Made by a program: the position numbers and the translations under genes. The notes under the pieces were generated by a model. The model was not told the origin of the DNA. It searched no databases and saw only the letters and a program-made list of their open reading frames with translations. Positions 584-36,285 of a stretch of 39,197 nt of DNA are shown piece after piece. The stretch's first letter is position 1. The number at the start of each line of letters is the position of its first letter. Where the stretch lies: sequence record MN518894.2; one strand, written 5' to 3'. The stretch comes from Escherichia virus LS2.

Positions 584-721
584 GTACCACATCAACACGA
601 AACAACGGTGACGACCAACACTGAAACGGTCTACCATGAAGTCGACTGGGAAAGGGAATGCTCTTTAACAATCTGGATAAACTCTTAATGTGCGCCGATA
701 GCGACTAACTACAGGGCCTTT

Positions 722-769
722 GAGTCTACATCTGAAGGCCCTGACTGATAGTCACTAACGGAACAGAGG
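722..769 (+). promoter_or_regulatory. Early-leader hairpin (perfect 9-bp stem cagggcctt / aaggccctg) followed by 20-bp box cctgactgatagtcactaac
   Basis: Perfect inverted repeat 722-730 / 745-753; the 20-bp box at 750-769 recurs exactly at 1409-1428; candidate RNase III processing or stability element. Confidence 0.45.
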
Positions 770-776
770 GACACTG

Positions 777-1022
777 ATGAAACATCTGAGCACCATTACC
801 AACCATAACGAAGTATTCGTGAACACTAAAGGTTATGCGTGGATTCAGCTTAAAGAGACGACAGGAGCGCGTCACCGTGTGGTAGTGCGCAAGGTCTCAA
901 GCAAGCCGTTCAGCAACTACAGCGTAGATACTGTTCGTATAGACAACGAGACCTACCTGATAGACTCGCAGATAACCGTGAGTCCTACAGCGAGCGCCTC
1001 AGCTCCTTATTTCGCTAACTGA
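777..1022 (+). CDS. Early hypothetical protein (81 aa)
   Basis: ORF with GAGGG Shine-Dalgarno 6 nt upstream, first gene after the host promoter; no homolog recognised. Confidence 0.6.
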   Translation: MKHLSTITNHNEVFVNTKGYAWIQLKETTGARHRVVVRKVSSKPFSNYSVDTVRIDNETYLIDSQITVSPTASASAPYFAN

Positions 1023-1095
1023 GAGTGCTTCACTACACGTCTGTACACTCATACCGGCCTCACTCATACTCACTAACAACCTAAGAGGATTCATT

Positions 1096-1374
1096 ATGAG
1101 ACTGAACAAAGCTACAGCAGAAGCCTTTCGCAAGGAGCTTGAATCAAGATTATTGTGTGGAGTGGCGGAAGGAGCCGCTCGGTATAAAGAGAATGGTCTA
1201 ACGTTCAAGCGCTTTATGTGGGATTGCTATCACGGAGTGGGCCATAAAAAGGCGCAGGATATAATCACCAGTAACAATGCGGAAGTGCAAGTGGTGGGAG
1301 GATATATGACTAACGTGAAGGATTCACACATAGAGACCATGCTCAAGAATGCACTTAAAGATGTAGCCTACTAG
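1096..1374 (+). CDS. Early hypothetical protein (92 aa)
   Basis: ORF with AAGAGGA Shine-Dalgarno 6 nt upstream; no homolog recognised. Confidence 0.6.
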   Translation: MRLNKATAEAFRKELESRLLCGVAEGAARYKENGLTFKRFMWDCYHGVGHKKAQDIITSNNAEVQVVGGYMTNVKDSHIETMLKNALKDVAY

Positions 1375-1384
1375 TGATTAACTA

Positions 1385-1428
1385 CAGGTCGTTAGACCTG
1401 ATAGCGGGCCTGACTGATAGTCACTAAC
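1385..1428 (+). promoter_or_regulatory. Second copy of the early-leader element (6-bp stem caggtc/gacctg plus box cctgactgatagtcactaac)
   Basis: Stem 1385-1390 / 1395-1400; box 1409-1428 identical to 750-769; lies just upstream of the ocr homolog. Confidence 0.4.
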
Positions 1429-1460
1429 AAACACACACACAACTTTGAGAGGATATAACT

Positions 1461-1796
1461 ATGGAACGTAACGCTAACGCATACTATGAGCTGCTGGCTG
1501 CAACCGTTGAGGCATTTATCGAGCGTATTCAGTACGACCACCTGACTCAAGATGACGACTACAGCGATGCGCTGCACGAGGTCGTAGGCGATCAGGTCCC
1601 GCACTATTACCACGAGATTTTCACGGTGATGGCTGCTGATGGTATAGACCACGAGTTCGAAGACTCTGGGCTGATGCCTGAAACCAAGGACGTAACGCGT
1701 ATCCTCCAAGCTCGCATCTATGAGGCGCTTTATAACGATGTGTCTAATAGCTTGGATGTAGTCTGGTTTGAGGATGAAGAGGACTGCGAGCGATGA
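1461..1796 (+). CDS. ocr: Ocr-like anti-restriction protein (DNA mimic), T7 gp0.3 homolog
   Basis: 111-aa acidic protein; the stretch [43 protein letters not shown] matches T7 Ocr as I recall it; GAGAGGA Shine-Dalgarno. Confidence 0.85.
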
Positions 1797-1963
1797 TAAC
1801 TTACGGTTTATGCCAGCACCACGTCACCAACGCCCGACTTATGGTCAAGACCGGGCAGTTAAACCACGATGCGACTATGCGTCACCTGAAAGCGGTCTAC
1901 GAGGGCCGCAAGCGTATACACGACAGCTTACACGATGAGGATAACCAACAATGCACCAGATAA
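1793..1963 (+). CDS. Small early ORF (56 aa), start overlaps the ocr stop (ATGA)
   Basis: ATGA start-stop overlap typical of T7 early small genes; below the 60-aa cutoff of the ORF track; no homolog recognised. Confidence 0.35.
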
Positions 1964-2076
1964 CTTATAGCAGCGAACAAGCGTTCTACGATGGGTGCTA
2001 CGAGCTGATGAAGCGCGATACTTGCTACGTGGCCAATCGTGAAAGCTTGACCATAACGCTGACAGGTGGATACTGA
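1951..2076 (+). CDS. Small early ORF (41 aa)
   Basis: ATG-initiated ORF following the previous small ORF; weak support. Confidence 0.25.
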   Translation: MHQITYSSEQAFYDGCYELMKRDTCYVANRESLTITLTGGY

Positions 2077-2234
2077 GTGATAGACGAGAGGTCATCGACT
2101 GATAGGTGGCCTCAAAGATTACCACTTACATTGATAGGAGTTAACTATGAAAATGGGTTACGGGGCAGCTTATCTCCGGTCATCTTTCTGATAGCTTGGG
2201 GACTTCTGGACGCAATCAAGCGAGGGTCATTCTA

Positions 2235-2432
2235 ATGAGCTGGGTACTTCTGGGTATCTTAGGCTATGGACTTATCGCATACGTGCTGGTGAGAGACATC
2301 AACAAGGCACGTAAAGTCTATAAATTCAACTATGTACGTATGGTCCGCTGGACTGTACGTCAACCTAACGGACGATTCCTGCGCAATTTAGCGAACGTCT
2401 GGGATATAGCAACTCTTGGGAGCAAACTGTAA
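2235..2432 (+). CDS. Small membrane-anchored early protein (65 aa from ATG 2235; the ORF track extends to a TTG at 2196)
   Basis: GAGGG 8 nt upstream of ATG 2235; N-terminal hydrophobic segment SWVLLGILGYGLIAYVLV. Confidence 0.5.
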   Translation: MSWVLLGILGYGLIAYVLVRDINKARKVYKFNYVRMVRWTVRQPNGRFLRNLANVWDIATLGSKL

Positions 2433-2758
2433 TGAACAAGTCATACGGGATTAATCTGGTACACTCTATGGACGCAGAAATGAACATGTTAAGCCTACTG
2501 GCTACCGGGTATCATCACGGAACGTCAAGTCACACCGCACGTCAACAGCAGGAGCGGGACCGTGTACTACAGGCGCGACTCCGGGCAGAGGGCCATAAGT
2601 CCGAACTGATGTGTCTGGCGTATGGTGGACGACCAATCACCGACGATGGTAAACTTCTGGTATCAGGCTGGACGGCGATAGACCAACGGTCAACCATCAA
2701 GCACACGACAAAAGGTGACTTCAGTCATCTTCACGCTAACCCACTGATATGCAAGTAA
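2432..2758 (+). CDS. Early hypothetical protein (108 aa) at the position of the T7 0.7 kinase, but not a kinase
   Basis: ORF overlapping the previous stop (TAATG); no kinase motifs. Confidence 0.55.
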   Translation: MNKSYGINLVHSMDAEMNMLSLLATGYHHGTSSHTARQQQERDRVLQARLRAEGHKSELMCLAYGGRPITDDGKLLVSGWTAIDQRSTIKHTTKGDFSHLHANPLICK

Positions 2759-2855: not shown

Positions 2856-5537
2856 ATGAGCGTCATCTCTATTGACAAACATGACTTCTCTGATGTGTCG
2901 AACGCCATTGAGCCGTTTAACCTGCTGGCTGACCACTACGGACAAGACCTTGCAGTCAAACAGCTTCAGCTTGAGCATGAGGCATATACAGAAGGCGAGC
3001 GACGTTTCATCAAGAACCTTGAGCGGCAGACTGAGCGCGGGGAACTGGCAGACAATCAGGTCGCCAAGCCTTTGATGCAGACTCTGGTCCCTAAGATTGC
3101 GCAAGCCGTCAGGGAGTGGCACGAAGGCCTAGACGGGAAGCTGTCAACCTCGCGTCCTAGCGTAGCGTTCACCATGTTGAGCACTGAAGAGAAGGCCGTT
3201 AAGGACCGCTCTATGCGCATCTCCTGTGAGTCCGCTGCGGTTATCATACTGAAGGTCATACTCTCCAAGCTGGTCAAGCCTGAAGGGATACCGATTACAC
3301 CGATGGCCTCCGCGATAGGTCGCACACTTGAGGACGAAATCCGCTTCGGTCGCATCCGTGACAAAGAGAAGGAGCACTTCAAGAAGGCGATAGCTGATAA
3401 CCTGAACAAGCGAGCTGGGGCATCCTACAAAAAAGCCTACATGCAAGCGGTCGAGGCGTCCATGCTGGAGCAAGGCCAACTGGAAGATGCATGGGGTACT
3501 TGGAGTCCTACAGAGGCTGTACACGTTGGCATCAAGATGCTCGAGATTGTCATCCAGTCAACACAACTGGTCGAGCTTAAGCGGTACGGTGCTGGTAATG
3601 CAGCGGCTGACGTAGAGATGGTCCACCTGTCAGACTTCTGGGTCAAGAAGATGGCACAACGAGGATTCAGCCTTGCGGGTATCGCTCCAGTCTACCAGCC
3701 TTGCGTCGTTCCACCTAAGCCGTGGACTGGTGTCGTAGGTGGTGGGTACTGGGCCAAAGGTCGCAGACCGTTACCATTGATTCGCTTAGGGTCTAAGTCT
3801 GCGGTAGCACGTTATGAAGACGTATACATGCCTGAAGTCTATGACGCTGTGAACATCATTCAGAATACACCTTGGAAAGTTAACAAGAAGGTATTGGACG
3901 TGGTGAACATGGTCGAGAAGCTGAACAACACGCCTATTAATGACATCCCTCAGATGGAACCGCTGAAGCCTGAGGACTATGCTGGTGAAACCGAGGAGGA
4001 ACTCAAGGCATGGAAGAAGACTGCTGCTGGTATCTATCGCCGCGAGAAGGCCAGACAGTCACGCAGATTGTCCATGAGTTTCATCGTTCACCAGGCCAAC
4101 AAGTTCTCACAGTTTAAGGCCATCTGGTTCCCGTACAACATGGATTGGCGAGGTCGTGTCTACGCTGTCCCGATGTTCAACCCTCAGGGTAACGACATGC
4201 AGAAGGGGCTCCTGACTCTGGCAGTCGGCAAGCCTATCGGGGCGGATGGTTTCAAATGGCTTAAAGTCCACGGTGCAAACTGTGCGGGTGTCGATAAAGT
4301 CACCTTCGATGAGCGCATCAAGTGGGTGGAAGACAACCACGAAAACATCATGGCTGCTGCTAAGGCACCGATGGATAGTATTGAGTGGTGGGGCAAGTTA
4401 GACTCTCCGTTCTGTTTCCTCGCGTTCTGCTTCGAGTATGCTGGCGTAATGCACCACGGCCTGTCTTACTCCTGCTCGCTGCCGATAGCGTTCGATGGGT
4501 CCTGCTCTGGTATTCAGCACTTCAGTGCGATGCTTCGTGACCACATCGGTGGACATGCAGTAAACCTGACGCCATCCGGCATGGTACAAGACATCTACCG
4601 CATTGTGTCTGACCGCATTGAGGAGGAGCTTAAAGTCCTTCTGATTAACGGTACTGACAACGAGATGGTCACTCACGAGGATAAGAAAACTGGTGAGATT
4701 ACCGAACGTATCAAGCTGGGGACACGAGAGCTGGCCCGTCAGTGGCTGACATACGGTATGTCACGCAAGGTCACTAAGCGTTCAGTCATGACTCTGGCAT
4801 ACGGGTCGAAAGAGTACGGATTCGCAGACCAAGTTTACGAGGACATCGTGATGCCAGCGATTGACTCAGGGTCTGGCGCTATGTTCACTGAACCAAGCCA
4901 AGCGTCTCGCTTCATGGCAAAGATGATTTGGGAAGCTGTGAGTGTGACAGTAGTTGCTGCGGTTGACGCGATGAAGTGGCTTCAAGGTGCTGCCAAGCTG
5001 CTGGCTGCTGAGGTGAAGGACAAGAAGACTGGGGAAATCCTGAAGCCTTGCCTTCCGGTACACTGGGTCACACCTGATGGGTTCCCGGTCTGGCAGGAAT
5101 ACCGCAAGAAGGATACCACTCGTCTGAACCTGATGTTCTTAGGGTCCTTCAACCTTCAACCTACGGTCAACAAAGGTACGAAGAAAGAGCTGGACAAGCA
5201 CAAGCAGGAGTCAGGCATTAGCCCCAACTTCGTCCACTCACAAGATGGTAGCCACCTGCGGAAGACTGTAGTCCACACTCACAGCAAGTATGGCGTGATG
5301 TCATTCGCAGTGATTCACGATAGCTTCGGGACCATCCCTGCTGACGCTGAGTATCTGTTCCGTGGTGTCCGTGAGACGATGGTCGAGACATACCGCGATA
5401 ACGATGTGCTGCTTGACTTCTACGAGCAGTTTGAATACCAGCTTCATGAAAGCCAGCGCGACAAGTTGCCTGAGCTTCCGAAGAAAGGTAAACTGAATAT
5501 CGAAGACATCTTGTCTTCAGACTTTGCATTCGCTTAA
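2856..5537 (+). CDS. gp1: Single-subunit DNA-dependent RNA polymerase (T7 gene 1 homolog, 893 aa)
   Basis: Co-linear similarity to T7 RNAP throughout, including C-terminal ...HSQDGSHLRKTVV...IHDSFGT...FAFA. Confidence 0.97.
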   Translation: MSVISIDKHDFSDVSNAIEPFNLLADHYGQDLAVKQLQLEHEAYTEGERRFIKNLERQTERGELADNQVAKPLMQTLVPKIAQAVREWHEGLDGKLSTSRPSVAFTMLSTEEKAVKDRSMRISCESAAVIILKVILSKLVKPEGIPITPMASAIGRTLEDEIRFGRIRDKEKEHFKKAIADNLNKRAGASYKKAYMQAVEASMLEQGQLEDAWGTWSPTEAVHVGIKMLEIVIQSTQLVELKRYGAGNAAADVEMVHLSDFWVKKMAQRGFSLAGIAPVYQPCVVPPKPWTGVVGGGYWAKGRRPLPLIRLGSKSAVARYEDVYMPEVYDAVNIIQNTPWKVNKKVLDVVNMVEKLNNTPINDIPQMEPLKPEDYAGETEEELKAWKKTAAGIYRREKARQSRRLSMSFIVHQANKFSQFKAIWFPYNMDWRGRVYAVPMFNPQGNDMQKGLLTLAVGKPIGADGFKWLKVHGANCAGVDKVTFDERIKWVEDNHENIMAAAKAPMDSIEWWGKLDSPFCFLAFCFEYAGVMHHGLSYSCSLPIAFDGSCSGIQHFSAMLRDHIGGHAVNLTPSGMVQDIYRIVSDRIEEELKVLLINGTDNEMVTHEDKKTGEITERIKLGTRELARQWLTYGMSRKVTKRSVMTLAYGSKEYGFADQVYEDIVMPAIDSGSGAMFTEPSQASRFMAKMIWEAVSVTVVAAVDAMKWLQGAAKLLAAEVKDKKTGEILKPCLPVHWVTPDGFPVWQEYRKKDTTRLNLMFLGSFNLQPTVNKGTKKELDKHKQESGISPNFVHSQDGSHLRKTVVHTHSKYGVMSFAVIHDSFGTIPADAEYLFRGVRETMVETYRDNDVLLDFYEQFEYQLHESQRDKLPELPKKGKLNIEDILSSDFAFA

Positions 5538-5549
5538 CAGGAGAGAGTT

Positions 5550-5765
5550 ATGAAATTTGCACACAAGCATGCTGGAGTTAAGGGCGGGACTCAAATCGTG
5601 ACCGTAACAGAACACAACGGCAATGGTCTGGTGAAGACCACGGTCATTCCTACCGAAATGTCAAAGCAGCTTAACGTCCCATTCAAGACCCTCGTCTATC
5701 TTGTGGAATCCAGCCACGAGAAATACCTGAAAGACGCAGTGACCAAGCTGGAGCAGACCAAATGA
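5550..5765 (+). CDS. Hypothetical protein (71 aa) between RNAP and the gene 1.1 promoter
   Basis: Good Shine-Dalgarno GGAGAG; natural codon usage; a degenerate second copy lies at 5843-6151. Confidence 0.65.
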   Translation: MKFAHKHAGVKGGTQIVTVTEHNGNGLVKTTVIPTEMSKQLNVPFKTLVYLVESSHEKYLKDAVTKLEQTK

Positions 5766-5839
5766 CAGACCTACAGTTACTGGCCTTGTGGCTGGGAGCA
5801 CTCGCAGTATTCACTTTAATCCAAAGCAGAAGAGGTTAA
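5762..5839 (+). CDS. Small hydrophobic peptide ORF (25 aa, MTDLQLLALWLGALAVFTLIQSRRG)
   Basis: ATGA overlap with the upstream stop; single predicted transmembrane helix; weak support. Confidence 0.3.
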   Translation: MTDLQLLALWLGALAVFTLIQSRRG

Positions 5840-5842
5840 CCC

Positions 5843-6151
5843 GAAATTTGCACACAAGCATGCTGGAGTTAAGGGCGGGACTCAAATGAACCATCCAGTG
5901 ACCGTAACATAATCTTGAGCTGGCTAACCGGGAACACACACGGCAATGGTCCAAGATTTAGAAGGCTCTGGTGAAGACCACGGTCATTCCTACCGAAATT
6001 AAGCGGATGGTCGGCCTGAAGTTCAAGGCTCTGTTCAAGACCCTCGTCTATCTTGTGGAATTCAAGACCGGGCCAGCCACGAGAAATACCAGAAAGACGC
6101 ACTTCACCACGAGTCGAGACAAGCTGGAGCAGACCAAATGACAGACCTACA
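5843..6151 (+). pseudogene. Block-mosaic degenerate copy of 5552-5775 (gene 5550-5765 plus the first codons of the next ORF)
   Basis: Nine blocks of 6-46 nt 100% identical to the upstream gene, separated by eight replaced blocks of 2-34 nt; ATG replaced by CCG; frame broken. Confidence 0.6.
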
Positions 6152-6343
6152 CGGATGGCTCTCAGAAGGACTTTGAGTACCGACTGAGCGACATCGACGG
6201 TCGCATCCAGTATGACTACGAGCAGGTTAAAGTCTATGGACAGGAGGCCGAACGTGAGCGAGCGATTCAGGCATTCACGCAGGTAAGACCGCGCATCATC
6301 TTACCCCTTTGCCTCCCATTGCCGTTAACCGTTAAAATTCCGT

Positions 6344-6395
6344 GTCGACGTACGTACGTACGTACGTACGTACGTACGTTGCATGCATGCATGCA
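6344..6395. repeat. GTCGAC followed by (ACGT)8 (6348-6379) and (TGCA)4 (6380-6395)
   Basis: Perfect tetranucleotide periodicity; alternating purine-pyrimidine, fully self-complementary; contains SalI, BsiWI, SnaBI, SphI and NsiI recognition sequences. Confidence 0.95.
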
Positions 6396-6417
6396 CTAAA
6401 CTATCACTATAGGATTA
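6395..6417 (+). promoter_or_regulatory. Phage-RNAP promoter (+1 near 6412), phi1.1 equivalent
   Basis: cactaaactatcactata G gatta. Confidence 0.8.
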
Positions 6418-6458
6418 GACTCAAGGTCATGACTCAAAGTCGTGGCCTTCATGATTAA
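6417..6458 (+). promoter_or_regulatory. RNase III-type processing site (R1.1-like)
   Basis: agactcaaggtc...gtggccttcatgatta resembles the T7 R1.1 site as I recall it; two further copies at 13113 and 36188. Confidence 0.6.
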
Positions 6459-6497
6459 CCGGTACGACTCAGGTTCAATTACCGGAGCTGTACACCA

Positions 6498-6671
6498 ATG
6501 TATCAGAACACTATCAACTTCGAGCGAATCCGTGAACGTCAGCAGACTGAAGATTATATTCCGAAGGGACGCAAGCTGAACAAGACCAAGCGTGGTGGAG
6601 GTGTCAAGGGTGCTTTCCGTAACGCTGAAGGCAAAGACGCTCTATGGTCAACCAAGAGAAATACTTCGTAG
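6498..6671 (+). CDS. gp1.1: gp1.1-like small basic protein (57 aa)
   Basis: Contains KGRKLNKTKR as in T7 gp1.1 (from memory); below the ORF-track length cutoff. Confidence 0.65.
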   Translation: MYQNTINFERIRERQQTEDYIPKGRKLNKTKRGGGVKGAFRNAEGKDALWSTKRNTS

Positions 6672-6686
6672 GAGTGTAACAAATTC

Positions 6687-6950
6687 ATGAACCATTACGA
6701 GCTTAAAGATTTCCTTTCAAAGCAGCAAAGAGTCTTGGACTTGTGGTTGAGCACGACTGGTATGCTCCAGCGTAGACTTAAGGTAGAGCGAGTGTCCTTC
6801 AGGACAGACTACAGCAAGAACGGCTACGAGCGAGGGACCTGCTACCGAGACTTGAGTTTACTGGACTCACTGGGTCCAACAGAATACGCCGATGCCATCG
6901 GTCCGGCTTACAACGGTCTCGCTTACACAATTTGGAGGATAACACAATGA
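6687..6950 (+). CDS. Hypothetical protein (87 aa) at the gene 1.2 position
   Basis: ORF between gp1.1 and ligase; stop overlaps the ligase ATG; no clear similarity to T7 gp1.2. Confidence 0.6.
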   Translation: MNHYELKDFLSKQQRVLDLWLSTTGMLQRRLKVERVSFRTDYSKNGYERGTCYRDLSLLDSLGPTEYADAIGPAYNGLAYTIWRITQ

Positions 6951-7999
6951 CAACTATCAAAACCAACCCGCATCGCGCTGTAGATTACTCTGAGTCAGGC
7001 GTTAAGAAAGCGCTTGAAGCTGCTGGGTCGCTGGAAGCCGAAGTGAAGTATGACGGTGTGCGGTTGAATATTCCGGTGATGCGCGAAGGTGAGAACTACT
7101 GGTTAAGCCGTGAGTCAAAAACGCTTCCGGCCTTAGACTGGGTCAACAGTGAGTCAGGACATGCATGCCGTGCGGCCGACTGGCGATGGTTCCTGAAGCA
7201 AGCAGGACATGAAGTCGTCGGTCTGCTGATTGACGGAGAGGTGCTGGTCAAGGGTGTAGACTTCAACACATCCTCAGGTCTTATCCGCACCATGTGGCTG
7301 ACCCCAAGCAACTACAAGTGCGCTGAAGGCTATCCAAGACGTGGCAACAAGGTCCCATTCCAGATAGCCCGGTTACTACTAAAAGTGGTCGTCTACGGGG
7401 TCATCGACCTTAACATCATCAACGACCCGAAAGCCGAAGGTCCTATCCATAGCGTCACACGCCTGAAGGCCGAAGCTATCGTCCCTCTCCTCCAGAAATA
7501 CTTCCCGGAAATAGACTGGGTTCTGTCTGAGTCATACATCGTGTTTGAGCTTGAGGAGCTTAACTACTTGTATGAAAAGAAGAGCCGAGAGGGCCATGAG
7601 GGTCTGGTGGTTAAAGACCCACTGGGACGCTGGAAGCGTGGCAAGAAGTCAGGTATGTTCAAGATGAAACCCGAAGAGGGCACGGACGGTACGTTGTACG
7701 GCCTGATATGGGGAACAGAAGGTCTAGCCAACGAAGGTATGGTCATCGGCTTTGACGTTATGCTTGAGAACGGGATGGAAGTGAACGCGTGCGGCCTGAC
7801 CGAAGAACAGAAAGATGAATTTACCGCGAGCGTGCTGAACTGGCGCAAAGGCCTGTGCAGCAGCACCATTTATGGCAACCCGTTTGCGGGCAACCAGGTG
7901 GAAGTGCTGTTTATGGAACGCTTTCCGGATGGCAGCCTGCGCCATCCGAGCTTTAAATGCTGGCGCGGCACCGAAGATAACCCGACCGTGAAAAGCTAG
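6947..7999 (+). CDS. gp1.3: ATP-dependent DNA ligase (T7 gene 1.3 homolog); true start ATG 6947 (MTTIKTNP...), C-terminal 73 codons recoded
   Basis: GGAGGA 7 nt upstream of ATG 6947; IKTNP N-terminus and C-terminal PDGSLRHPSF...RGTEDNP match T7 ligase. Confidence 0.93.
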   Translation: MTTIKTNPHRAVDYSESGVKKALEAAGSLEAEVKYDGVRLNIPVMREGENYWLSRESKTLPALDWVNSESGHACRAADWRWFLKQAGHEVVGLLIDGEVLVKGVDFNTSSGLIRTMWLTPSNYKCAEGYPRRGNKVPFQIARLLLKVVVYGVIDLNIINDPKAEGPIHSVTRLKAEAIVPLLQKYFPEIDWVLSESYIVFELEELNYLYEKKSREGHEGLVVKDPLGRWKRGKKSGMFKMKPEEGTDGTLYGLIWGTEGLANEGMVIGFDVMLENGMEVNACGLTEEQKDEFTASVLNWRKGLCSSTIYGNPFAGNQVEVLFMERFPDGSLRHPSFKCWRGTEDNPTVKS

Positions 8000-8152
8000 C
8001 AGAACCCACGGTCCTATACCAGGGTGTGTGACTCAGGCGGTGAACCCGTAGTCACTGCCAATCTGGAGAGAAATACGTTCAATACCAGAAATCAACTGGT
8101 CGATGGCAATAAAGCGTACGTCAGCCGAGGCGGTAGCCTAAGAGATTCATTA

Positions 8153-8192
8153 TAATGTCAACCCAGTGGTCATTAATGTCAACCCAGTGGTC
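8153..8192 (+). repeat. Tandem 19-bp direct repeat taatgtcaacccagtggtc x2 (8153-8171, 8174-8192)
   Basis: Exact duplicate; second copy forms the 5-prime arm of the terminator hairpin. Confidence 0.9.
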
Positions 8193-8216
8193 TTCGGACT
8201 GCTGGGTTTCTTTACG
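8181..8216 (+). terminator. Early intrinsic terminator candidate (TE-like): 12-bp stem, UUCG tetraloop, U-rich tail
   Basis: aacccagtggtc TTCG gactgctgggtt (10 Watson-Crick plus 2 G-U pairs) followed by tctttacg; same architecture as T7 TE. Confidence 0.5.
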
Positions 8217-8235
8217 TCTGGGCCACCAGCCTGAC

Positions 8236-8258
8236 CCTAAGCTATCACTATAGGACAA
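8236..8258 (+). promoter_or_regulatory. Phage-RNAP promoter (+1 near 8253)
   Basis: ccctaagctatcactata G gacaa. Confidence 0.75.
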
Positions 8259-8536
8259 CCTAACCGACCTAAGGAGGAACCGCATGTTTAAGAACTTAAT
8301 GTTCAATCGCCTTACTACAAGATTCCACCTGTCTCACAACCCGTTCGGCTTGCATTAAGCGCAACAACGAGTAGGCTACTTCGGGAAGGCCGTTAAGCTG
8401 TCACCTACAGTGGCTTCGCTAATTACTCGCAAGTGAAAGCTGAAGGCTCGCGAGAAAGGCCAACTTTACGTACCTGTGGTCTTTACAAAGTGGCCTCGCG
8501 TTCGTCTGTTCGTTGAGGTCGTGAAGGAGATGTTCT

Positions 8537-8935
8537 ATGGGGAGGGTGTCATACCACCACAGACTGTCAAGCCTGTATTGGTGTCGACCGCTTCCACTGC
8601 TGACGACCGCTTCCAAACTTGTAGGTAACAAAATCGACGCCGTCCGCAAGCCGTCCCACTATCAGGTCTTTGATGGTGTGGAATCCATTGAGATTATCGC
8701 CCGGTCCATGACTGTCAGCGAGTTCCGTGGTTTCTGCATGGGTAACGTCCTGAAGTATCGACTCCGAGCTGGTAAGAAGTCCGAGCTGGCTACTATGGAG
8801 AAGGACCTAAACAAAGCGGCCTTCTATCAGGAGCTGTTCGACCTGCATAAAGGTAAGTGCTATGCCGCCGAGAGACTGGTGCCGGAGAGAGTGACTCTCA
8901 ACCCGGACTATGCATTACCTATACATATACCATAA
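8537..8935 (+). CDS. Hypothetical protein, DUF3310-like (132 aa)
   Basis: AAGGAG 8 nt upstream; motif PSHYQ...GNVLKYRLRAGKK resembles DUF3310 from memory. Confidence 0.55.
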   Translation: MGRVSYHHRLSSLYWCRPLPLLTTASKLVGNKIDAVRKPSHYQVFDGVESIEIIARSMTVSEFRGFCMGNVLKYRLRAGKKSELATMEKDLNKAAFYQELFDLHKGKCYAAERLVPERVTLNPDYALPIHIP

Positions 8936-8953
8936 ATGGAAGGAGCGAGGTTT

Positions 8954-9112
8954 ATGCACATTGAGGAAAAGAAATACATCGTGGAGCTTGAGGGTCGCGT
9001 CCAGTCCTTCGAGGTTCCTGTGTACGCAAAGTCTCTTGAAGAGGCTACCATGAAGTCCCAAGAGTATGAGGACGCTGGGTTTGTGGTCGGACGGATTCGT
9101 CCTGAGACCTAA
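8954..9112 (+). CDS. gp2: gp2-like inhibitor of host RNA polymerase (52 aa)
   Basis: [14 protein letters not shown]...[10 protein letters not shown] resembles T7 gp2 (HSFEVPIYAETLDEA...AGFEVTRVRP); below the ORF-track cutoff. Confidence 0.7.
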
Positions 9113-9130
9113 ACTATCACTGTAGGACAG
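9108..9130 (+). promoter_or_regulatory. Phage-RNAP promoter (+1 near 9125), variant core cactgtagg
   Basis: cctaaactatcactgta G gacag. Confidence 0.7.
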
Positions 9131-9169
9131 ACGTCAAGTTCGTAACTTTAAATTAGGAGATTTACACCA

Positions 9170-9868
9170 ATGGCTAAAGAGCAACTGAAGACTTTCACCA
9201 CTCCGGTAGCTGGTATCGTTGAGCCTTACGCATGGCTGAACAGAGCAGACACCAAGTTTAACGAGCGTGGTGAGCATAAGGTTAACCTGACATTCAACCT
9301 GAGCGACCCGAAGGTCCGTAAGATGATTGATGTCTTACAGAAGATTCACGACGATGCGTATGCGAAAGCACTTGCAGACCACGAGAAGAACCCACCTCAG
9401 GTTCAGCGTGGCAAGAAGCCTATTGAACCACGAGAAGGCGACATGCCGTGGATTGAGAATGGTGACGGTACTGTTACCCTGAAGTTAAAATGCTTTGCGT
9501 CTTACCTTAAAGATGGCAAGTCCGAGCCTATCGTATTACGGTTCTACGACACCGATGCTAAACGCATCCGTGACGTCCCGAATATTGGCGCTGGGTCTAA
9601 GCTGAAGGTCAAGTTTAAAGTCCTGCCGTTCAAGTGGAACGCTGCGACGGGTGCAAGCGTTAAGCTCCAGCTTGAGTCCTGCCTTCTGGTAGAACTGAAG
9701 GAGTGGAAAGGTGATGGTAATGGTGGCGATGGTGGCTGGGGCGATGATGAAGACCTCGGTACTGGCTACAAAGCGTCAACCGATGGTGACTTCGGGTCTG
9801 ATGACTTCGGTGACGATGGTTCCGAAGGTGGGGATGACTCCAACTCTGGTGGCGATTACAACTTCTAA
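9170..9868 (+). CDS. gp2.5: Single-stranded DNA-binding protein (T7 gp2.5 homolog) with acidic C-terminal tail ending in F
   Basis: Similarity to T7 gp2.5 (EPYA..., GKKP..EGDMP, SKLKVK...PFKWN, ASVKLQLES). Confidence 0.93.
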   Translation: MAKEQLKTFTTPVAGIVEPYAWLNRADTKFNERGEHKVNLTFNLSDPKVRKMIDVLQKIHDDAYAKALADHEKNPPQVQRGKKPIEPREGDMPWIENGDGTVTLKLKCFASYLKDGKSEPIVLRFYDTDAKRIRDVPNIGAGSKLKVKFKVLPFKWNAATGASVKLQLESCLLVELKEWKGDGNGGDGGWGDDEDLGTGYKASTDGDFGSDDFGDDGSEGGDDSNSGGDYNF

Positions 9869-10320
9869 TGGCCCAATGGTCTGCAAAACGGGGGCACTCT
9901 GTGGGTGCCTACCGCTCTGGACTTGAAGCCAAGAACCAGCAGTGGCTGGAACAGAACGGCGTCAAAGCGGAGTACGAAAGCCATTATATCAACTATGTGA
10001 TTCCGGCTTCCGACCACAAGTACACACCAGACTTTATCCTTCCTAACGGTATCATCGTAGAGACCAAAGGTATCTTCGATAGTGATGACCGTAAGAAGCA
10101 CCTTCTGGTACGAGAACAGCACCCAGAGTTAGACATCCGGTTCGTGTTCTCAAGTTCCCGCTCCAAGTTATACAAAGGGTCTCCGACCACGTATGGCGCA
10201 TGGTGCGAAAAGAACGGCTATAAGTATGCCGATAAGTTCATCCCGGTTGAGTGGCTTCGAGAGGCGACTGTACGTCTGCCCTCAGGTATACTCATCCCCA
10301 AGAAGAAAGGAGTTAAGTGA
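9868..10320 (+). CDS. gp3: Endonuclease I, Holliday junction resolvase (T7 gp3 homolog)
   Basis: YTPDFILPNGIIVETKG...DDRKKHLLVREQHPELDIRFVFSSSRSKLYKGSPT matches T7 endonuclease I. Confidence 0.93.
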   Translation: MAQWSAKRGHSVGAYRSGLEAKNQQWLEQNGVKAEYESHYINYVIPASDHKYTPDFILPNGIIVETKGIFDSDDRKKHLLVREQHPELDIRFVFSSSRSKLYKGSPTTYGAWCEKNGYKYADKFIPVEWLREATVRLPSGILIPKKKGVK

Positions 10321-10544
10321 TGACTCAAGAAGTTAAGGTCGTTCGTCAGCGTCTGACCATTGATAAGATCCCGGTAGGCTATGCGTTTATCATCCACGGT
10401 AAGCCTGGTGAAGTGTACGTGAAGATTAGTAACTCTCACGTCTTCAACCATAAGTTGCTACAGATGCATACCACGGATGCTAACCGTTTCCAACGTCATC
10501 TGAACCTAGTAGCCGTAGAGCTGGTGGTGTACGATGGTGAGTAA
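10320..10544 (+). CDS. Hypothetical protein (about 74 aa)
   Basis: ORF between endonuclease I and lysozyme; no homolog recognised. Confidence 0.5.
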   Translation: MTQEVKVVRQRLTIDKIPVGYAFIIHGKPGEVYVKISNSHVFNHKLLQMHTTDANRFQRHLNLVAVELVVYDGE

Positions 10545-10992
10545 GGTTCAGTTCAACCCACGGTCCCGGACTGACGCTATCTTCGTTCACTGTTCGGCTA
10601 CCAAGCCAGATATGGACATCGGGGTAGAGACCATCCGTATGTGGCACAAGCAGCAAGGCTGGCTGGACGTAGGCTACCACTTTATCATCAAGCGAGATGG
10701 CACTGTGGAAGAGGGTCGCCCGGTCAATGTCGTAGGGTCACACGTTAAGGACTGGAACTCAAAGTCCGTAGGCGTCTGCCTTGTAGGTGGAATTGACGCT
10801 AAGGGCAAGTTTAAAGCTAACTTCACTCCGGCCCAGATGCACTCCCTGCGCAACAAGCTGGCTGACCTGAAGGCCCTGTATCCTCAGGCAGAAATAAAAG
10901 CACACCATGACGTAGCACCTAAGGCGTGTCCAAGTTTCGACTTGCAACGCTGGCTGACTACCAACGAACTGGTCACTTCCGACCGAAGCTAA
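10534..10992 (+). CDS. gp3.5: N-acetylmuramoyl-L-alanine amidase / lysozyme (T7 gp3.5 homolog)
   Basis: AIFVHCSATKP...WHKQQGWLDVGYHFIIKRDGTVEEGR...KACPSFDL matches T7 lysozyme. Confidence 0.95.
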   Translation: MVSKVQFNPRSRTDAIFVHCSATKPDMDIGVETIRMWHKQQGWLDVGYHFIIKRDGTVEEGRPVNVVGSHVKDWNSKSVGVCLVGGIDAKGKFKANFTPAQMHSLRNKLADLKALYPQAEIKAHHDVAPKACPSFDLQRWLTTNELVTSDRS

Positions 10993-11128
10993 TCACCGGA
11001 AACATGGGACCATGAGTCCTATGGAAAGTCGTCATTTAGAATTGCGGAGTGACGAATGGCTAAATCGTATTAAGTATCAACAGCCGAGGGTCCACGTTCA
11101 GGTATGATCCACGACAACAAGGCTGAAG

Positions 11129-11151
11129 GCTAAACTATCACCTTAGGGATG
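11129..11151 (+). promoter_or_regulatory. Phage-RNAP promoter, deviant core (ctatcacctta G gg), +1 near 11146
   Basis: gctaaactatcacctta G ggatg; three mismatches to the consensus in -4..-2. Confidence 0.5.
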
Positions 11152-11198
11152 GGACCATGAGTCCTTTCCCTTTGTTCGCATTTGTGATTAAGGAGTGA

Positions 11199-12902
<1,704 letters not shown>

Positions 12903-12980
12903 AAGGGACATCGCGGACTATAAGAACGTCGCGGAGGACACGTACGGCTAAAAAAACTTAAAGCTCGCTACCATCGGTTC

Positions 12981-13109
12981 ATGTACAAATGGTGGAGTGA
13001 TGAAGCAACCTGCCTGTCCAACATTCTGGGAGACCAAAGGTTCGACTCTAAGGCATGGAAGAGAGCTAACCGGAAGTTTATGTATCACTTCTTGCGTACA
13101 GACTTCTAG
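12981..13109 (+). CDS. Small ORF (42 aa) between primase and DNA polymerase
   Basis: ATG-initiated ORF, weak Shine-Dalgarno; position of T7 4.x genes. Confidence 0.3.
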   Translation: MYKWWSDEATCLSNILGDQRFDSKAWKRANRKFMYHFLRTDF

Positions 13110-13112
13110 GTC

Positions 13113-13152
13113 TAGACTCAAGGTCATTCACATCGAGTGGCCTTTATGATTA
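13113..13152 (+). promoter_or_regulatory. RNase III-type processing site
   Basis: tagactcaaggtcattcacatcgagtggcctttatgatta; near-identical to the copies at 6417 and 36188. Confidence 0.6.
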
Positions 13153-13173
13153 GACTAAACCGGAGGATTAACC

Positions 13174-15345
13174 ATGTTTGACCTTAAGAGTATCTGGGGT
13201 TCTGACATAGAGACCAACGGTCTCCTTGATACAGTATCCCAGTTTCACTGTGGGGTCCTGATTAACGCCGAGTCGAATGAGACCCTTAAGTATGGGGTAG
13301 CTCCGATGGTCGGTATCGTCGGTGGCTTCAAAGAGTATGTACAGAAGGTGGAAGAGATTGCCGCATCACCTGATGGTATGCTGGTATTCCACAACGGTAT
13401 CAACTATGACGTCCCGGCTATTGACAAGCTGAAGCGTCTGTACTTTGGGAAACGCTTTAACTTCCCGAAACACAAGATGATTGATACCTTGGTGCTGGGA
13501 CGCTTGATGTATCCAAACATTAAGTTCTCAGACATGGGCGCAGTGAAAGCTGGTCGTCTGCCACCTAAGATGATGGGACGCCAGTCTCTTGAGGCTTGGG
13601 GCTATCGTCTCGGTGAGATGAAAGGTGAGTACAAACACGATTACGTTGCCAAGTGCAAGGCTGAAGGTATCGAATATAAGGCTGGGGACGAATGGTTGTT
13701 CCCATCTCAGGAGATGCTAGACTATAACGTTCAAGACGTTGTGGTCACACTGGCGTTGTTCAAGAAGTTCCTGACTGACAAGTATTACTTCCAGTCTGAA
13801 CAGTTCGCTTTCGACCAGATTTATGCGTTGCGTCTGGAACATGATGCTGCGTGGACCTGTGCGAAGATGGAACGTAACGGCTATCCGATGAACACCGAGA
13901 TGGTCGAAGGCTTATATCGTGAACTCACCGTCAAACGTGCAGAGTTGTTGGACAAGCTGCGTTCGACTTTCGGTAGCTGGTATGCACCAAAGGGAGGCAA
14001 GGAGTTCTTCAAGCACCCACGGACAGGCAAGGACCTTCCGAAGTATCCGCGAGTCGTGTATCCTAAGGTCGGGTCAGTATTCAAGAAGCCGAAGAACAAA
14101 GCTCAACGATTAGGTCTGGAGCCTTGCGAGTTCGACTCACGAGACACGATGGAAGGAGCACCGTTCACACCTATCACTTACGTTGAGTTTAATCCGGGAA
14201 GCGGAGACCACTTAGCGAAAGTCCTGATGGAGCGTGGCTGGGAGCCTGTGGACTTCACTGACACCGGGAAACCTGTAGTCGATGACGAGACGTTAGAACA
14301 CGTTAAGTTACCAGACGAAGAGGCTCAGGCTTGCGTAGAGCTGGTCCGTGAGTATCTGGTAGTCCAGAAGCGCATCGGTCAGGCTGCTGAAGGTAAGAAC
14401 GCATGGTTGAAACTTGTAGGTCCAGACGGACGTATGCACGGTTCAATCAACCCATGCGGGGCAGTAACCGGACGTGCTACTCATAGTTCACCAAACATGG
14501 CTCAGGTCCCTGCTAACGGTGCTCCGTATGGTGAGATTTGCCGTGGTGCTTTCGGTGCAGCTTGGAACAAGACGGATGGTAAGCCAGACCCTTGGATTCA
14601 AGTGGGCGTGGATGCCTCAGGTCTTGAGCTTCGTTGTCTGGGGAACCGAGCGGCCCCGTTTGATGGTGGAGCCTATGCGAAGACTGTGGTAGAAGGGGAC
14701 ATCCACTGGGCCAACGCAGTAAACGCTGGGTTAGCACCTAACGTCCCACGCGATAAGTCGAACCACGACCATGAGGCTTTCCGTAACAACGCTAAGACGT
14801 TCATCTATGCGTTCCTGTATGGTGCAGGGGCCGCTAAGATTGGACTGATAGTCGGTGGCGGTAAGAAGGAAGGTTCAGCTCTCATGAAGAAATTCATTGA
14901 GGGTACACCAGCTATCAAGGATCTGCGAGAGGCTGTGAAGAATACGTTAATCTCAGACTCTAAGTGGGTGGATGGAGAGAACATCGTCAAGTGGAAACGC
15001 CGTTGGTTGCGTGGACTTGATGGTCGCCGTATCCACATCCGGTCGCCGCACTCAGCACTTAACGCCTTACTTCAGGGTGATGGTGCGGTGGTCTGTAAAC
15101 ACTGGCTTGGCGAGAAGGAACCTAAGCTGGAAGAGGCAAAATACGTGCATGGCTGGGATGGTGACTTTGCGTGGATGGCTTTTGTCCATGATGAAGTTCA
15201 AGTTGCCGGAAGGACTATGGAAATAGCTGAGGACATCGTTAAGGTGGCGCAATCCACAATGCGAGAGGTTGGAGAGTTCTACAAGTTCAAGTGTGTACTT
15301 GACACCGAGGGAAAGATAGGATCGACGTGGAAGGAGTGTCACTAA
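13174..15345 (+). CDS. gp5: DNA polymerase (T7 gp5 homolog)
   Basis: Co-linear with T7 gp5 (N-terminal exonuclease D-I-E, motifs NYDVP, RATHSSPN, AKTFIYAFLYGAG, HDE). Confidence 0.96.
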   Translation: MFDLKSIWGSDIETNGLLDTVSQFHCGVLINAESNETLKYGVAPMVGIVGGFKEYVQKVEEIAASPDGMLVFHNGINYDVPAIDKLKRLYFGKRFNFPKHKMIDTLVLGRLMYPNIKFSDMGAVKAGRLPPKMMGRQSLEAWGYRLGEMKGEYKHDYVAKCKAEGIEYKAGDEWLFPSQEMLDYNVQDVVVTLALFKKFLTDKYYFQSEQFAFDQIYALRLEHDAAWTCAKMERNGYPMNTEMVEGLYRELTVKRAELLDKLRSTFGSWYAPKGGKEFFKHPRTGKDLPKYPRVVYPKVGSVFKKPKNKAQRLGLEPCEFDSRDTMEGAPFTPITYVEFNPGSGDHLAKVLMERGWEPVDFTDTGKPVVDDETLEHVKLPDEEAQACVELVREYLVVQKRIGQAAEGKNAWLKLVGPDGRMHGSINPCGAVTGRATHSSPNMAQVPANGAPYGEICRGAFGAAWNKTDGKPDPWIQVGVDASGLELRCLGNRAAPFDGGAYAKTVVEGDIHWANAVNAGLAPNVPRDKSNHDHEAFRNNAKTFIYAFLYGAGAAKIGLIVGGGKKEGSALMKKFIEGTPAIKDLREAVKNTLISDSKWVDGENIVKWKRRWLRGLDGRRIHIRSPHSALNALLQGDGAVVCKHWLGEKEPKLEEAKYVHGWDGDFAWMAFVHDEVQVAGRTMEIAEDIVKVAQSTMREVGEFYKFKCVLDTEGKIGSTWKECH

Positions 15346-16893: not shown

Positions 16894-17016
16894 ACTGGGT
16901 CGGACTTCTGGCCCTTTACTGCATGTACAAGTGGTTCGGGTCGAACAACCGCCCTAAACACTGAGTCTAACCGATAGTCATATCCTATCAATCCAACAGT
17001 CATCCATAGGTGAAAC

Positions 17017-17039
17017 ACTAAACTATCACTATAGGGACT
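17017..17039 (+). promoter_or_regulatory. Phage-RNAP promoter (+1 near 17034), phi6.5 equivalent
   Basis: cactaaactatcactata G ggact. Confidence 0.8.
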
Positions 17040-17100
17040 TTAGGACCTAAGATATGACTATAAGATAGACTTTAGTCTTAACTTAAAGAGGAGATTCAAG

Positions 17101-25507: not shown

Positions 25508-25531
25508 CTTATTGAATGGCCTATAGATTTA

Positions 25532-25554
25532 CCTTAACTATCACTATAGGGACT
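25532..25554 (+). promoter_or_regulatory. Phage-RNAP promoter (+1 near 25549), phi13 equivalent, bracketed by a 12-bp inverted repeat
   Basis: accttaactatcactata G ggact; inverted repeat aatggcctatag (25515-25526) / ctataggccatt (25553-25564). Confidence 0.75.
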
Positions 25555-25583
25555 ATAGGCCATTAAGGTTATAAGGAGACTTT

Positions 25584-35924: not shown

Positions 35925-36184
35925 CGCAGATGGACTTAGAGAAGTTCCTCTTGATGCTTGATACTGAGCGTGCTCGACTTATGCTGCAAGACTTGCGGGA
36001 TGACACTAAGCGTTCACCTCAGCTCTACAACGCCATTGAGAAGCTGCTTGCTCGTCACAACTTTGTGTTAAGCAAGGTGTCTGTTGACGAGAAGACGCTC
36101 GCTGATATGGAGGCCCTGAACGCAGAGTACGATAAGGTGCTCTCCGCTACGGAAGATAATGACACCGGGTATGGTGTTCAATAA
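35921..36184 (+). CDS. gp18: Terminase small subunit (T7 gp18 homolog)
   Basis: FLLMLDTERARLMLQDLRDDTKRSPQLYNAIEKLLARH matches T7 gp18. Confidence 0.9.
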   Translation: MTQMDLEKFLLMLDTERARLMLQDLRDDTKRSPQLYNAIEKLLARHNFVLSKVSVDEKTLADMEALNAEYDKVLSATEDNDTGYGVQ

Positions 36185-36187
36185 GCG

Positions 36188-36230
36188 TTAGACTCAAGGT
36201 CATTACTGTATGTAGTGGCCTTTATGGTTA
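36188..36230 (+). promoter_or_regulatory. RNase III-type processing site (R18.5-like)
   Basis: ttagactcaaggtcattactgtatgtagtggcctttatggtta. Confidence 0.6.
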
Positions 36231-36285
36231 ACACTAACTAGTGGAGGAGACTCTACGTGCAATCTGATAAACCGGGAGGGCAACT

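What the first reader, a model, noticed from the sequence alone, without database searches (positions are those of the whole stretch)
13113..13152. Three near-identical RNase III-type sites (also 6417-6458 and 36188-36230)
The 40-nt element tagactcaaggtc…gtggcctttatg(a/g)tta recurs three times at positions matching T7 R1.1, R4.7 and R18.5. This supports conserved host RNase III processing of polycistronic transcripts.
Basis: partly seen in the sequence, partly recalled or inferred. Interest (0 to 1): 0.2.

Follow-up and report, generated by a model that had tools for sequence, protein, structure and literature searches.

The report
T7-type RNase III sites in coliphage
The three repeated 40-base elements are the counterparts, in a K1F-like relative of phage T7, of the well-studied hairpins at which the host enzyme RNase III cuts T7's long messenger RNAs, so the finding is real but ordinary.

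Summary
Confirmed, and ordinary. The window is a complete Kayfunavirus genome, a K1F-like member of the T7 group. It is 97-99.7% identical to Escherichia virus ECG4 over most of its length.

TAGACTCAAGGTC..GTGGCCTTYATGRTTA occurs exactly three times, all on the + strand: 6416-6457, 13113-13152 and 36189-36230. Chance expects none.

Each copy folds as an upper helix of 10-12 bp, an asymmetric internal loop (ACUC on the 5' side, YAUGR on the 3' side) and a lower helix. This is the architecture of T7 R1.1, and site 2 shares all 10 upper-helix pairs and both loop strands with R1.1.

A covariance model built only from seven T7 RNase III sites finds all three copies. It also finds three diverged early-region sites and nothing else. 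The same model recovers 8 of the 10 RNase III stem-loops annotated in phage T3.

Gene context matches R1.1, R4.7 and R18.5. The sites are conserved in nearly all relatives sampled, with compensatory changes.

Cleavage itself could not be tested. No new biology. Unrelated oddities nearby, including a scrambled stretch at 5843-6175, are listed separately.

The parts
6409..6472 (+). Site 1, the R1.1 equivalent. Lower helix 6410-6418 with 6455-6463; only about 5 of its 9 pairs form in this genome. Internal loop ACUC 6419-6422 and CAUGA 6450-6454. Upper helix 6423-6434 with 6438-6449 (12 bp), apical loop CAA. Predicted cut between U6452 and G6453.
   Evidence: Pattern match; fold; covariance-model hits of 53.0 bits and 31.1 bits with the T7-only model; present upstream of gp1.1 in 74 of 78 related loci.
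6397..6414 (+). Phage-RNAP promoter TAAACTATCACTATAGGA fused to site 1. The inferred start is G6412, so promoter-initiated transcripts begin inside the 5' arm of the lower helix, as with T7 phi1.1A/R1.1.
   Evidence: One of 11 promoter-consensus matches, 0 expected; the same fusion is seen in T7, T3 and all Kayfunavirus relatives.
13106..13167 (+). Site 2, the R4.7 equivalent, directly upstream of gene 5. Lower helix GGUCUAG 13109-13115 with UUAGACU 13150-13156. Internal loop ACUC 13116-13119 and UAUGA 13145-13149. Upper helix 13120-13129 with 13135-13144 (10 bp, identical to T7 R1.1), apical loop ACAUC. Predicted cut between U13147 and G13148.
   Evidence: covariance-model hits of 63.8 bits and 48.2 bits; present in 22 of 23 related gp5 loci.
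36182..36245 (+). Site 3, the R18.5 equivalent. Lower helix 36184-36191 with 36228-36235 (8 positions, one C.A mismatch); it starts at the last base of the gene 18 stop codon. Internal loop ACUC 36192-36195 and UAUGG 36223-36227. Upper helix 36196-36206 with 36212-36222 (11 bp), apical loop UGUAU. Predicted cut between U36225 and G36226.
   Evidence: covariance-model hits of 62.2 bits and 51.5 bits; present in 23 of 23 close gp18 loci. The UAUGG 3' loop is shared with T3 and T7 R18.5.
698..766 (+). Diverged family member upstream of the first early ORF (777-1022), a position like that of R0.3. Internal loop ACUAC / GACUGA.
   Evidence: Covariance-model hits of 30.9 and 33.0 bits; fold z = -4.45.
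1371..1435 (+). Diverged family member between ORF 1096-1374 and the ocr-like gene 1461-1796.
   Evidence: Covariance-model hits of 37.7 and 34.8 bits. The single-sequence MFE fold (z = -2.98) keeps the lower helix but rearranges the upper part, so the two-helix reading here rests on the model alignment. Neighbouring genes identified.
2074..2136 (+). Diverged family member in the early region, between small ORFs and upstream of the RNA polymerase gene.
   Evidence: Covariance-model hits of 37.9 and 35.7 bits; fold z = -2.96.

Best explanation
The three elements are RNase III processing signals of the T7 R1.1 class. They are positional orthologues of T7/T3 R1.1, R4.7 and R18.5, in a K1F-like phage.

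Proposed mechanism:
- Every gene is on the + strand and transcription gives long polycistronic RNAs, so each element is transcribed.
- In the RNA it folds into two coaxial helices separated by an asymmetric internal loop (5' ACUC, 3' YAUGR).
- Host RNase III binds the upper helix through its proximal-box and distal-box base pairs.
- Because the internal loop interrupts the duplex, the enzyme cuts only one strand, within the 3' side of the loop (..CCUUYAU^GR..).
- The upstream mRNA is left with a stable 3'-terminal hairpin that protects it from 3' exonucleases. The downstream mRNA starts with pGAUUA or pGGUUA.

Shown here: the repeat, the fold, covariation, synteny, and statistical membership of the T7 site family.

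Inferred: binding and cleavage by RNase III, the exact scissile bond, and the stabilising effect.
For: (1) There are exactly three matches against none expected, all in the sense orientation and between genes.

(2) The folds give upper helices of 10-12 bp, a 4 + 5 nt internal loop and a lower helix, the same shapes obtained for T7 R1.1, R4.7 and R18.5.

(3) In the alignment with seven T7 sites, 91.6% of cells are paired. Ten of 18 pairs change on both sides, and no shuffle of 500 and no slid register comes close (29-49% paired).

(4) A model built from T7 sites only hits the three elements at 51.5, 48.2 and 31.1 bits. It also hits three early sites and nothing else below E = 1. It recovers 8 of 10 curated T3 'RNase III recognition site' stem-loops at their annotated coordinates, and nothing else scores better than E = 0.29.

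(5) The flanking genes are as expected: RNAP, promoter and gp1.1; primase/helicase, gp4.3-like ORF and DNA polymerase; small terminase and Rz-like spanin.

(6) The sites are conserved at the same positions in 74/78, 22/23 and 23/23 related contigs. Compensatory changes occur in the lower helix and at the ninth upper-helix pair (UA/CG).

(7) Site 2 shares all 10 upper-helix pairs and both loop strands with T7 R1.1. Sites 2 and 3 have the published determinants: GC, AU, AU in the proximal box and UA + UG in the distal box (PMC1540722).

[quoted passage not shown] T7 has ten such sites processed by host RNase III (PMC6938266).
Against: - No cleavage data exist for this phage or, in the held literature, for any Kayfunavirus.
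- Site 1 has G-C where R1.1 has the distal-box U-A pair. In the minimal R1.1 substrate, every distal-box substitution examined reduced binding (PMC1540722).
- In this genome three outer pairs of the site 1 lower helix are broken relative to other Kayfunavirus genomes, and it scores lowest with the T7-only model (31.1 bits). Site 1 may therefore be a weaker substrate.
- T7's own R0.5 and R4.7 carry C-G at the same position, which tempers the distal-box concern.
- Single-sequence fold z-scores are modest: -1.6 to -2.5.
- The phage encodes no gp0.7 kinase, so the T7-style stimulation of RNase III would be absent.
- T7 grows on hosts lacking RNase III (PMC6938266), so processing is unlikely to be essential.
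Confidence: 0.9

Rival explanations
1. The hairpins act by themselves, as transcription pause or termination signals or as mRNA-stabilising structures, without RNase III cleavage.
For: Each contains a stable GC-containing hairpin followed by a U-rich stretch (UUUAU / UUCAU).
Against: - The terminator scan found nothing at any of the three elements.
- The U stretch is only 2-3 residues long and is interrupted.
- The internal-loop sequence and the lower helix are conserved and covary, which a simple terminator does not need.
- The homologous T7 elements are mapped RNase III sites, not terminators. The T7 and T3 terminators TE and Tphi are annotated elsewhere.
Confidence: 0.04
2. RNase III binds but does not cut at one or more of the sites. 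Site 1 is the likeliest case. The element would then be a regulatory binding site, or a decaying one, rather than a processing site.
For: - Site 1 has G-C at distal-box position 1 and a degraded lower helix in this genome.
- It has the lowest T7-only model score.
- Binding-competent but cleavage-resistant R1.1 variants exist (PMC1540722).
Against: - The proximal box and both loop strands of site 1 match cleaved T7 sites. CAUGA is the 3' loop of T7 R4.7, and C-G at the same distal position occurs in T7 R0.5 and R4.7.
- The upper helix alone suffices for correct cleavage in the minimal R1.1 substrate (PMC1540722).
- The core of site 1 is identical in about 20 Kayfunavirus genomes.
Confidence: 0.05
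3. The repeats work at the DNA level, for example as protein-binding sites, replication-origin elements or hotspots for recombination between phage modules.
For: The 15-16 bp arms are nearly identical at three module boundaries. In T7 the region around phi1.1A/B also holds the primary replication origin (own knowledge). T3 annotates its origin upstream of R1.1.
Against: - Compensatory changes preserve RNA pairing rather than DNA sequence.
- All copies have the same orientation as transcription.
- G.U pairs are retained in the helices, and these pair only in RNA on this strand. The reverse strand scores no better than E = 0.29.
- Breakpoints of similarity with ECG4 do not fall at the sites.
Confidence: 0.01

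Closest known systems
Bacteriophage T7 RNase III site R1.1 (T7 nt ~5848-5905; model substrate 'R1.1 RNA')
   Same: - Same motif, ACUCAAGGUCAUU..AGUGGCCUUUAUGAUU.
- Same two-helix, internal-loop fold.
- Same fusion to the phage promoter in front of gene 1.1.
- Window site 2 has the identical 10-bp upper helix and identical loop strands; site 1 has the same genomic position.
   Different: The apical loops and lower helices differ. Site 1 has a 12-bp upper helix, G-C at distal-box position 1, CAUGA instead of UAUGA, and a weak lower helix. Cleavage has been shown for T7 but not here.
Bacteriophage T3 RNase III recognition sites R1.1, R4.7 and R18.5 (annotated stem_loops in NC_003298)
   Same: Same three genomic positions. 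R4.7 lies directly before gene 5 and R18.5 begins at the end of gene 18. The same model hits them. Core identity to the window sites is 25-28 of 34.
   Different: T3 encodes the gp0.7 kinase and this phage does not. The T3 sites are less alike among themselves (24-29 of 34) than the window's (30-32 of 34).
T7 R4.7 and R18.5
   Same: Positional counterparts of sites 2 and 3. The UAUGG 3' loop is shared by R18.5 in the window, T3 and T7.
   Different: In T7, R4.7 is followed by promoter phi4.7 and gene 4.7, both absent here. The window sites resemble T7 R1.1 (29-30 of 34) more than they resemble their T7 positional counterparts (25 and 27 of 34).
T7/T3 promoter-embedded RNase III sites R3.8, R6.5 and R13
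   Same: The window has look-alike hairpins at the corresponding promoters (about 11145-11180; about 25515-25565; weaker at about 17000-17060).
   Different: This is a different structural class that lacks the ACUCAAGG..CCUUUAUGA motif. The models did not match R3.8 or R13. They are not part of the three-copy repeat.

Membership tests
T7-group RNase III processing signals (R1.1 class) | Hairpin made of an upper and a lower helix separated by an asymmetric internal loop; about two helical turns in all. | tested here: met
   Folds and the pair table (91.6% paired against 29-49% in slid registers). The lower helix is 7 bp in site 2, 8 positions with one mismatch in site 3, and only about 5 of 9 pairs in site 1.
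T7-group RNase III processing signals (R1.1 class) | Conserved sequence around the loop: ACUCAAGGUC on the 5' side and GGCCUU(U/C)AUG(A/G)U on the 3' side. | tested here: met
   In the 34 core columns each window site shares 27-30 positions with T7 R1.1 and 28-31 with T7 R0.5.
T7-group RNase III processing signals (R1.1 class) | Significant score against a profile built only from experimentally defined sites. | tested here: met
   Model R2, built from seven T7 sites, scores 51.5, 48.2 and 31.1 bits (E = 5e-10 to 5e-5) with no other hit below E = 1 except three early sites. The model was validated on T3 annotations.
T7-group RNase III processing signals (R1.1 class) | Sense orientation, intergenic position, and synteny with R1.1, R4.7 and R18.5. 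| tested here: met
   ORF map, PHROG assignments, EcoDS1 gene names, T7 and T3 maps.
T7-group RNase III processing signals (R1.1 class) | E. coli RNase III reactivity determinants. Proximal box: GC, AU/UA, AU. Distal box: UA + UG. No antideterminant pairs (PMC1540722). | tested here: inconclusive
   Read directly from the sequence. The proximal box is identical to R1.1 in all three sites. The distal box is U-A/U.G in sites 2 and 3, but G-C/U.G in site 1, as in T7 R0.5 and R4.7, which carry C-G there.
T7-group RNase III processing signals (R1.1 class) | Structure maintained by compensatory change among orthologues. | tested here: met
   For example, lower-helix pairs GC/UA, GC/AU, AU/GC/UA and CG/UA, and the ninth upper-helix pair UA/CG. 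Caveat: these alignments were fitted to the model.
T7-group RNase III processing signals (R1.1 class) | Single-strand cleavage by host RNase III within the 3' side of the internal loop (..UAU^GA..). | not testable with these tools
   Needs an in vitro cleavage assay or in vivo end mapping in rnc+ and rnc- hosts.
Intrinsic (rho-independent) terminators | GC-rich hairpin followed directly by a run of at least 5 U. | tested here: not met
   No terminator-like call at any of the three elements.
Any curated Rfam family | Score at or above the gathering threshold. | tested here: not met
   No hits in the whole window. No match means only that nothing reached a family's threshold.

The most novel reading that the evidence does not exclude
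The three sites, and their counterparts across Kayfunavirus, are kept unusually uniform and close to the optimal R1.1 sequence. Their core identity is 30-32 of 34, against 23-27 in T7 and 24-29 in T3. Each is closer to its paralogues than to its positional orthologue. One reading is intragenomic homogenisation (gene conversion between sites). Another is stronger selection for high-affinity substrates, because this lineage lacks the gp0.7 kinase that boosts RNase III turnover in T7 and T3.
Probability: 0.1. Interest if true: 0.3.

Novelty: already known. Interest (0 to 1): 0.08.

Why it matters
It matters little beyond annotation.

RNase III processing of T7-group transcripts has been textbook knowledge since the 1970s, and these are straightforward orthologues. 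The practical value is this:
- The sites are not annotated in the Kayfunavirus records examined (ECG4, EcoDS1, and nt 5000-14500 of K1F). This analysis gives coordinates and predicted cut positions for six sites.
- That helps when interpreting transcriptomes or engineering K1F-like phages, for example when choosing insertion points that do not disturb mRNA processing.

Tried and rejected
- Rfam at gathering thresholds gave no hit in the window.
- The T7 GenBank and RefSeq records as served carry no RNase III features. T7 cut coordinates therefore come from my memory of Dunn and Studier 1983. They were checked only for falling in the expected loop position. The T3 RefSeq record supplied curated annotations instead.
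- The K1F genome paper is not held, and the K1F stretch examined (nt 5000-14500) has no such features. Literature searches for Kayfunavirus plus RNase III, and for the T7 cut coordinates, found nothing.
- Idea tested: cleavage unmasks the Shine-Dalgarno sequence of the downstream gene. It was suggested by a CUUCU/GGAGG outer helix at site 2 in a short fold. It was rejected because, in longer contexts, the unpaired probability of the ribosome-binding region does not rise after the predicted cut at any site: 0.19 to 0.18, 0.64 to 0.54 and 0.54 to 0.40.
- The terminator reading was rejected.
- Distant gp18 relatives (51-56% identity) and the few loci lacking a hit were searched again with filters off. 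No site was found next to gene 18 there, so the motif looks confined to the enterobacterial T7 group as sampled.

Full report
**What the window is.** A 3-kb probe and a whole-window BLAST show a complete T7-like genome of the genus Kayfunavirus (K1F group). It is collinear with Escherichia virus ECG4 (MN218775.2) at 97-99.7% identity over most of its length. All long ORFs are on the + strand. Eleven matches to the phage promoter consensus TAAACTATCACTATAGGA are present against none expected.

**Checking the observation.**
- The pattern TAGACTCAAGGTC-N(10-25)-GTGGCCTTYATGRTTA occurs exactly three times, all on the + strand: 6416-6457, 13113-13152 and 36189-36230. None of 100 shuffles gave a match (raw sequence).
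The 6417-6458 range is shifted by one base, and the 36188-36230 range starts one base early.
- Over the 34 core columns the copies share 30-32 positions. The apical part differs, so overall identity is 82-84%.

**Anatomy.**
- Each element folds into an upper helix of 10-12 bp beginning AAGGUCAU / GUGGCCUU.
- Next comes an asymmetric internal loop: 5' ACUC, and 3' UAUGA, CAUGA or UAUGG.
- A lower helix is made from the flanks.
- T7 R1.1, R4.7 and R18.5 fold the same way.
- Site 2 has a clean 7-bp lower helix (GGUCUAG / UUAGACU). Site 3 has 8 positions with one mismatch. Site 1 forms only about 5 of 9 pairs in this genome.

**Homology with defined sites.**
- T7 carries the same motif at 1437-1472 and 5857-5891. 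These are R0.5 and R1.1 by Dunn and Studier's numbering, which I recalled from memory. The recalled cut positions fall in the 3' strand of the internal loop in seven of the ten folds, the R1.1-class sites.
- The three window elements align with T7 R0.3, R0.5, R1, R1.1, R1.3, R4.7 and R18.5.
- On that alignment the two-helix structure is 91.6% paired, and 10 of 18 pairs change on both sides. No shuffle of 500 reaches the observed values, and slid registers reach only 29-49% pairing.

**A cleaner membership test.**
- I built a covariance model from the seven T7 sites alone.
- Run without filters over the window, it hits 36183-36246 (51.5 bits), 13108-13168 (48.2 bits) and 6409-6472 (31.1 bits).
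- It also hits 2074-2137, 1371-1436 and 698-767, all on the + strand. Nothing else scores below E = 1.
- The T3 RefSeq record annotates ten 'RNase III recognition site' stem-loops. The model recovers eight of them at their annotated coordinates, and nothing else scores better than E = 0.29. The two it misses, R3.8 and R13, belong to a different, promoter-embedded class.

**Positions.**
- Site 1 is fused to a phage promoter (6397-6414, inferred start G6412). It lies upstream of the gp1.1 homologue at 6498-6671. This is the phi1.1A/R1.1 layout of T7 and the phi1.1/R1.1 layout of T3.
- Site 2 lies between a gp4.3-like ORF (12981-13109) and the DNA polymerase gene (13174-15345). There is no gene 4.7, so the layout is that of T3, where 'R4.7' directly precedes gene 5.
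- Site 3 starts at the last base of the gene 18 (small terminase) stop codon and precedes the Rz-like spanin gene 18.5. Its UAUGG 3' loop is shared with R18.5 of T3 and T7.

**Conservation.**
- Protein-anchored retrieval of related viral contigs shows a site upstream of gp1.1 in 74 of 78 loci.
- It shows a site upstream of gene 5 in 22 of 23 loci, and downstream of gene 18 in all 23 close relatives.
- Compensatory changes occur in the lower helix and at the ninth upper-helix pair. These alignments were fitted to the model, which favours the structure.
- Twelve distant gp18 relatives (51-56% identity) have no such site.

**Mechanism.**
- Published work shows that host RNase III processes T7's polycistronic transcripts at ten sites (PMC6938266).
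- R1.1 RNA is cut at a single phosphodiester (PMC4858673). Internal loops restrict cleavage to one strand and leave a protective 3' hairpin (PMC1540722).
- The published determinants are GC, AU/UA, AU in the proximal box and UA + UG in the distal box (PMC1540722). Sites 2 and 3 have them all.
- Site 1 has G-C at distal-box position 1. T7 R0.5 and R4.7, which are cleaved, carry C-G at that position.
- By alignment with T7 (3' ends ..CCUUUAU-OH and 5' ends pGAU.., from my own knowledge of the 1970s end-sequencing work), the predicted cuts are 6452/6453, 13147/13148 and 36225/36226.
- These last steps are inference. Nothing here tests cleavage.

**Rivals.**
- The terminator scan is negative at all three elements.
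- A DNA-level role is contradicted by strand-specific G.U pairing and covariation.
- A role in unmasking ribosome-binding sites found no support.
- Site 1 might be a weakened substrate. Three outer lower-helix pairs present in other Kayfunavirus genomes (UAGGAUUAG / UUAACCCUA) are broken here (UUAACCGGU) by a local cluster of substitutions.

**One small point of interest.**
- The window's three sites are more alike (30-32 of 34 core positions) than the corresponding sites within T7 (23-27) or T3 (24-29).
- They are also more alike than positional orthologues across the three phages (25-29).
- This phage has no gp0.7 kinase.
- Homogenisation, or tighter selection, is possible but untested, and the sample is tiny.

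**Verdict.** The elements belong to a long-known class. They are simply unannotated in the Kayfunavirus records examined: ECG4, EcoDS1, and nt 5000-14500 of K1F. Interest is low.

Noticed in passing
window 5843-6175: Interleaved mosaic. About nine blocks of 10-45 nt are copied, in order, from the upstream ORF (window 5552-5775). They alternate with blocks collinear with ECG4 5928-6189. The mosaic destroys the ORF that ECG4 annotates as ECG4_07. No phage record carries it (best match 76% identity). It looks like an assembly or consensus artefact rather than natural recombination.
   Followed up: partly
window 6344-6395: Perfect microsatellites (ACGT)8 at 6348-6379 and (TGCA)4 at 6380-6395. They follow a GTCGAC (SalI) site and lie immediately upstream of the phi1.1-type promoter. 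ECG4 shares them, but the roughly 20 other Kayfunavirus relatives inspected lack them at this position. Both units are self-complementary. Function unknown.
   Followed up: partly
window 6459-6497: Cluster of 11 substitutions relative to ECG4 within about 45 nt, mostly T to G or C, in an otherwise near-identical stretch. It removes three outer pairs of the lower helix of site 1.
   Followed up: partly
window 698-766, 1371-1435, 2074-2136: Three further, more diverged RNase III-type sites in the early region. All are on the + strand and between genes, and both covariance models detect them.
   Followed up: yes
window ~11145-11180, ~25515-25565, ~17000-17060, ~2780-2830: Promoter-associated hairpins resembling the other class of T7/T3 RNase III sites. 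GGGAUGGGACC..CCUUUCCCUUUGUUCGCAUU resembles T7 R3.8. A long stem enclosing the phi13-type promoter resembles R13. A weaker candidate resembles R6.5. A possible degenerate R1 remnant (GGACUCAAGGUCU...) follows the promoter in front of gene 1. The models matched none of these.
   Followed up: partly
L044, L053-L062 (relatives), region upstream of gene 5: In about half of the Kayfunavirus relatives the site before gene 5 is fused to a phage promoter (..TATCACTGTAGGATAGACTCAAGG). In the window and its nearest relatives that promoter is absent, and a different 5' arm (GGUCUAG) completes the lower helix.
   Followed up: partly
window 33525-35684 (within tailspike gene 32877-35576): The C-terminal two-thirds of the tailspike gene does not align with ECG4 and has no megablast match in 50,697 phage records. 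Pfam finds the T7 tail-fibre N-terminus, Tail_spike_N and a beta-helix. This is probably a swapped receptor-binding module. GC content is raised (0.57).
   Followed up: partly
window 33513-35126, - strand: A 537-aa open reading frame antisense to the tailspike gene, with no Pfam match. It is probably a by-product of the composition of this GC-richer module.
   Followed up: partly
window 777-2758 (early region): No gp0.7-type protein kinase among the early ORFs. An ocr-like gene is present at 1461-1796. The T7-style phosphorylation of RNase III is therefore not expected in this phage.
   Followed up: yes
L003 (ECG4, MN218775.2) 35786-39007: Product names in the ECG4 record are shifted by one or more genes near the right end. 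The gp18 homologue is called 'holin class II', the spanin 'terminase small subunit', the large terminase 'Rz-like spanin', and the tailspike 'peptidoglycan lytic exotransglycosylase'.
   Followed up: no
window 8153-8192: Perfect tandem duplication of a 21-nt unit, TAATGTCAACCCAGTGGTCAT (1.9 copies).
   Followed up: no
L085-L138 (gp1.1 relatives at about 84% identity): These genomes carry a second site of the same class about 450 nt downstream of the gp1.1 start (51 loci). This is the R1.3 position in front of the ligase gene. The window has none there, because its genes 1.2 and 1.3 overlap.
   Followed up: partly
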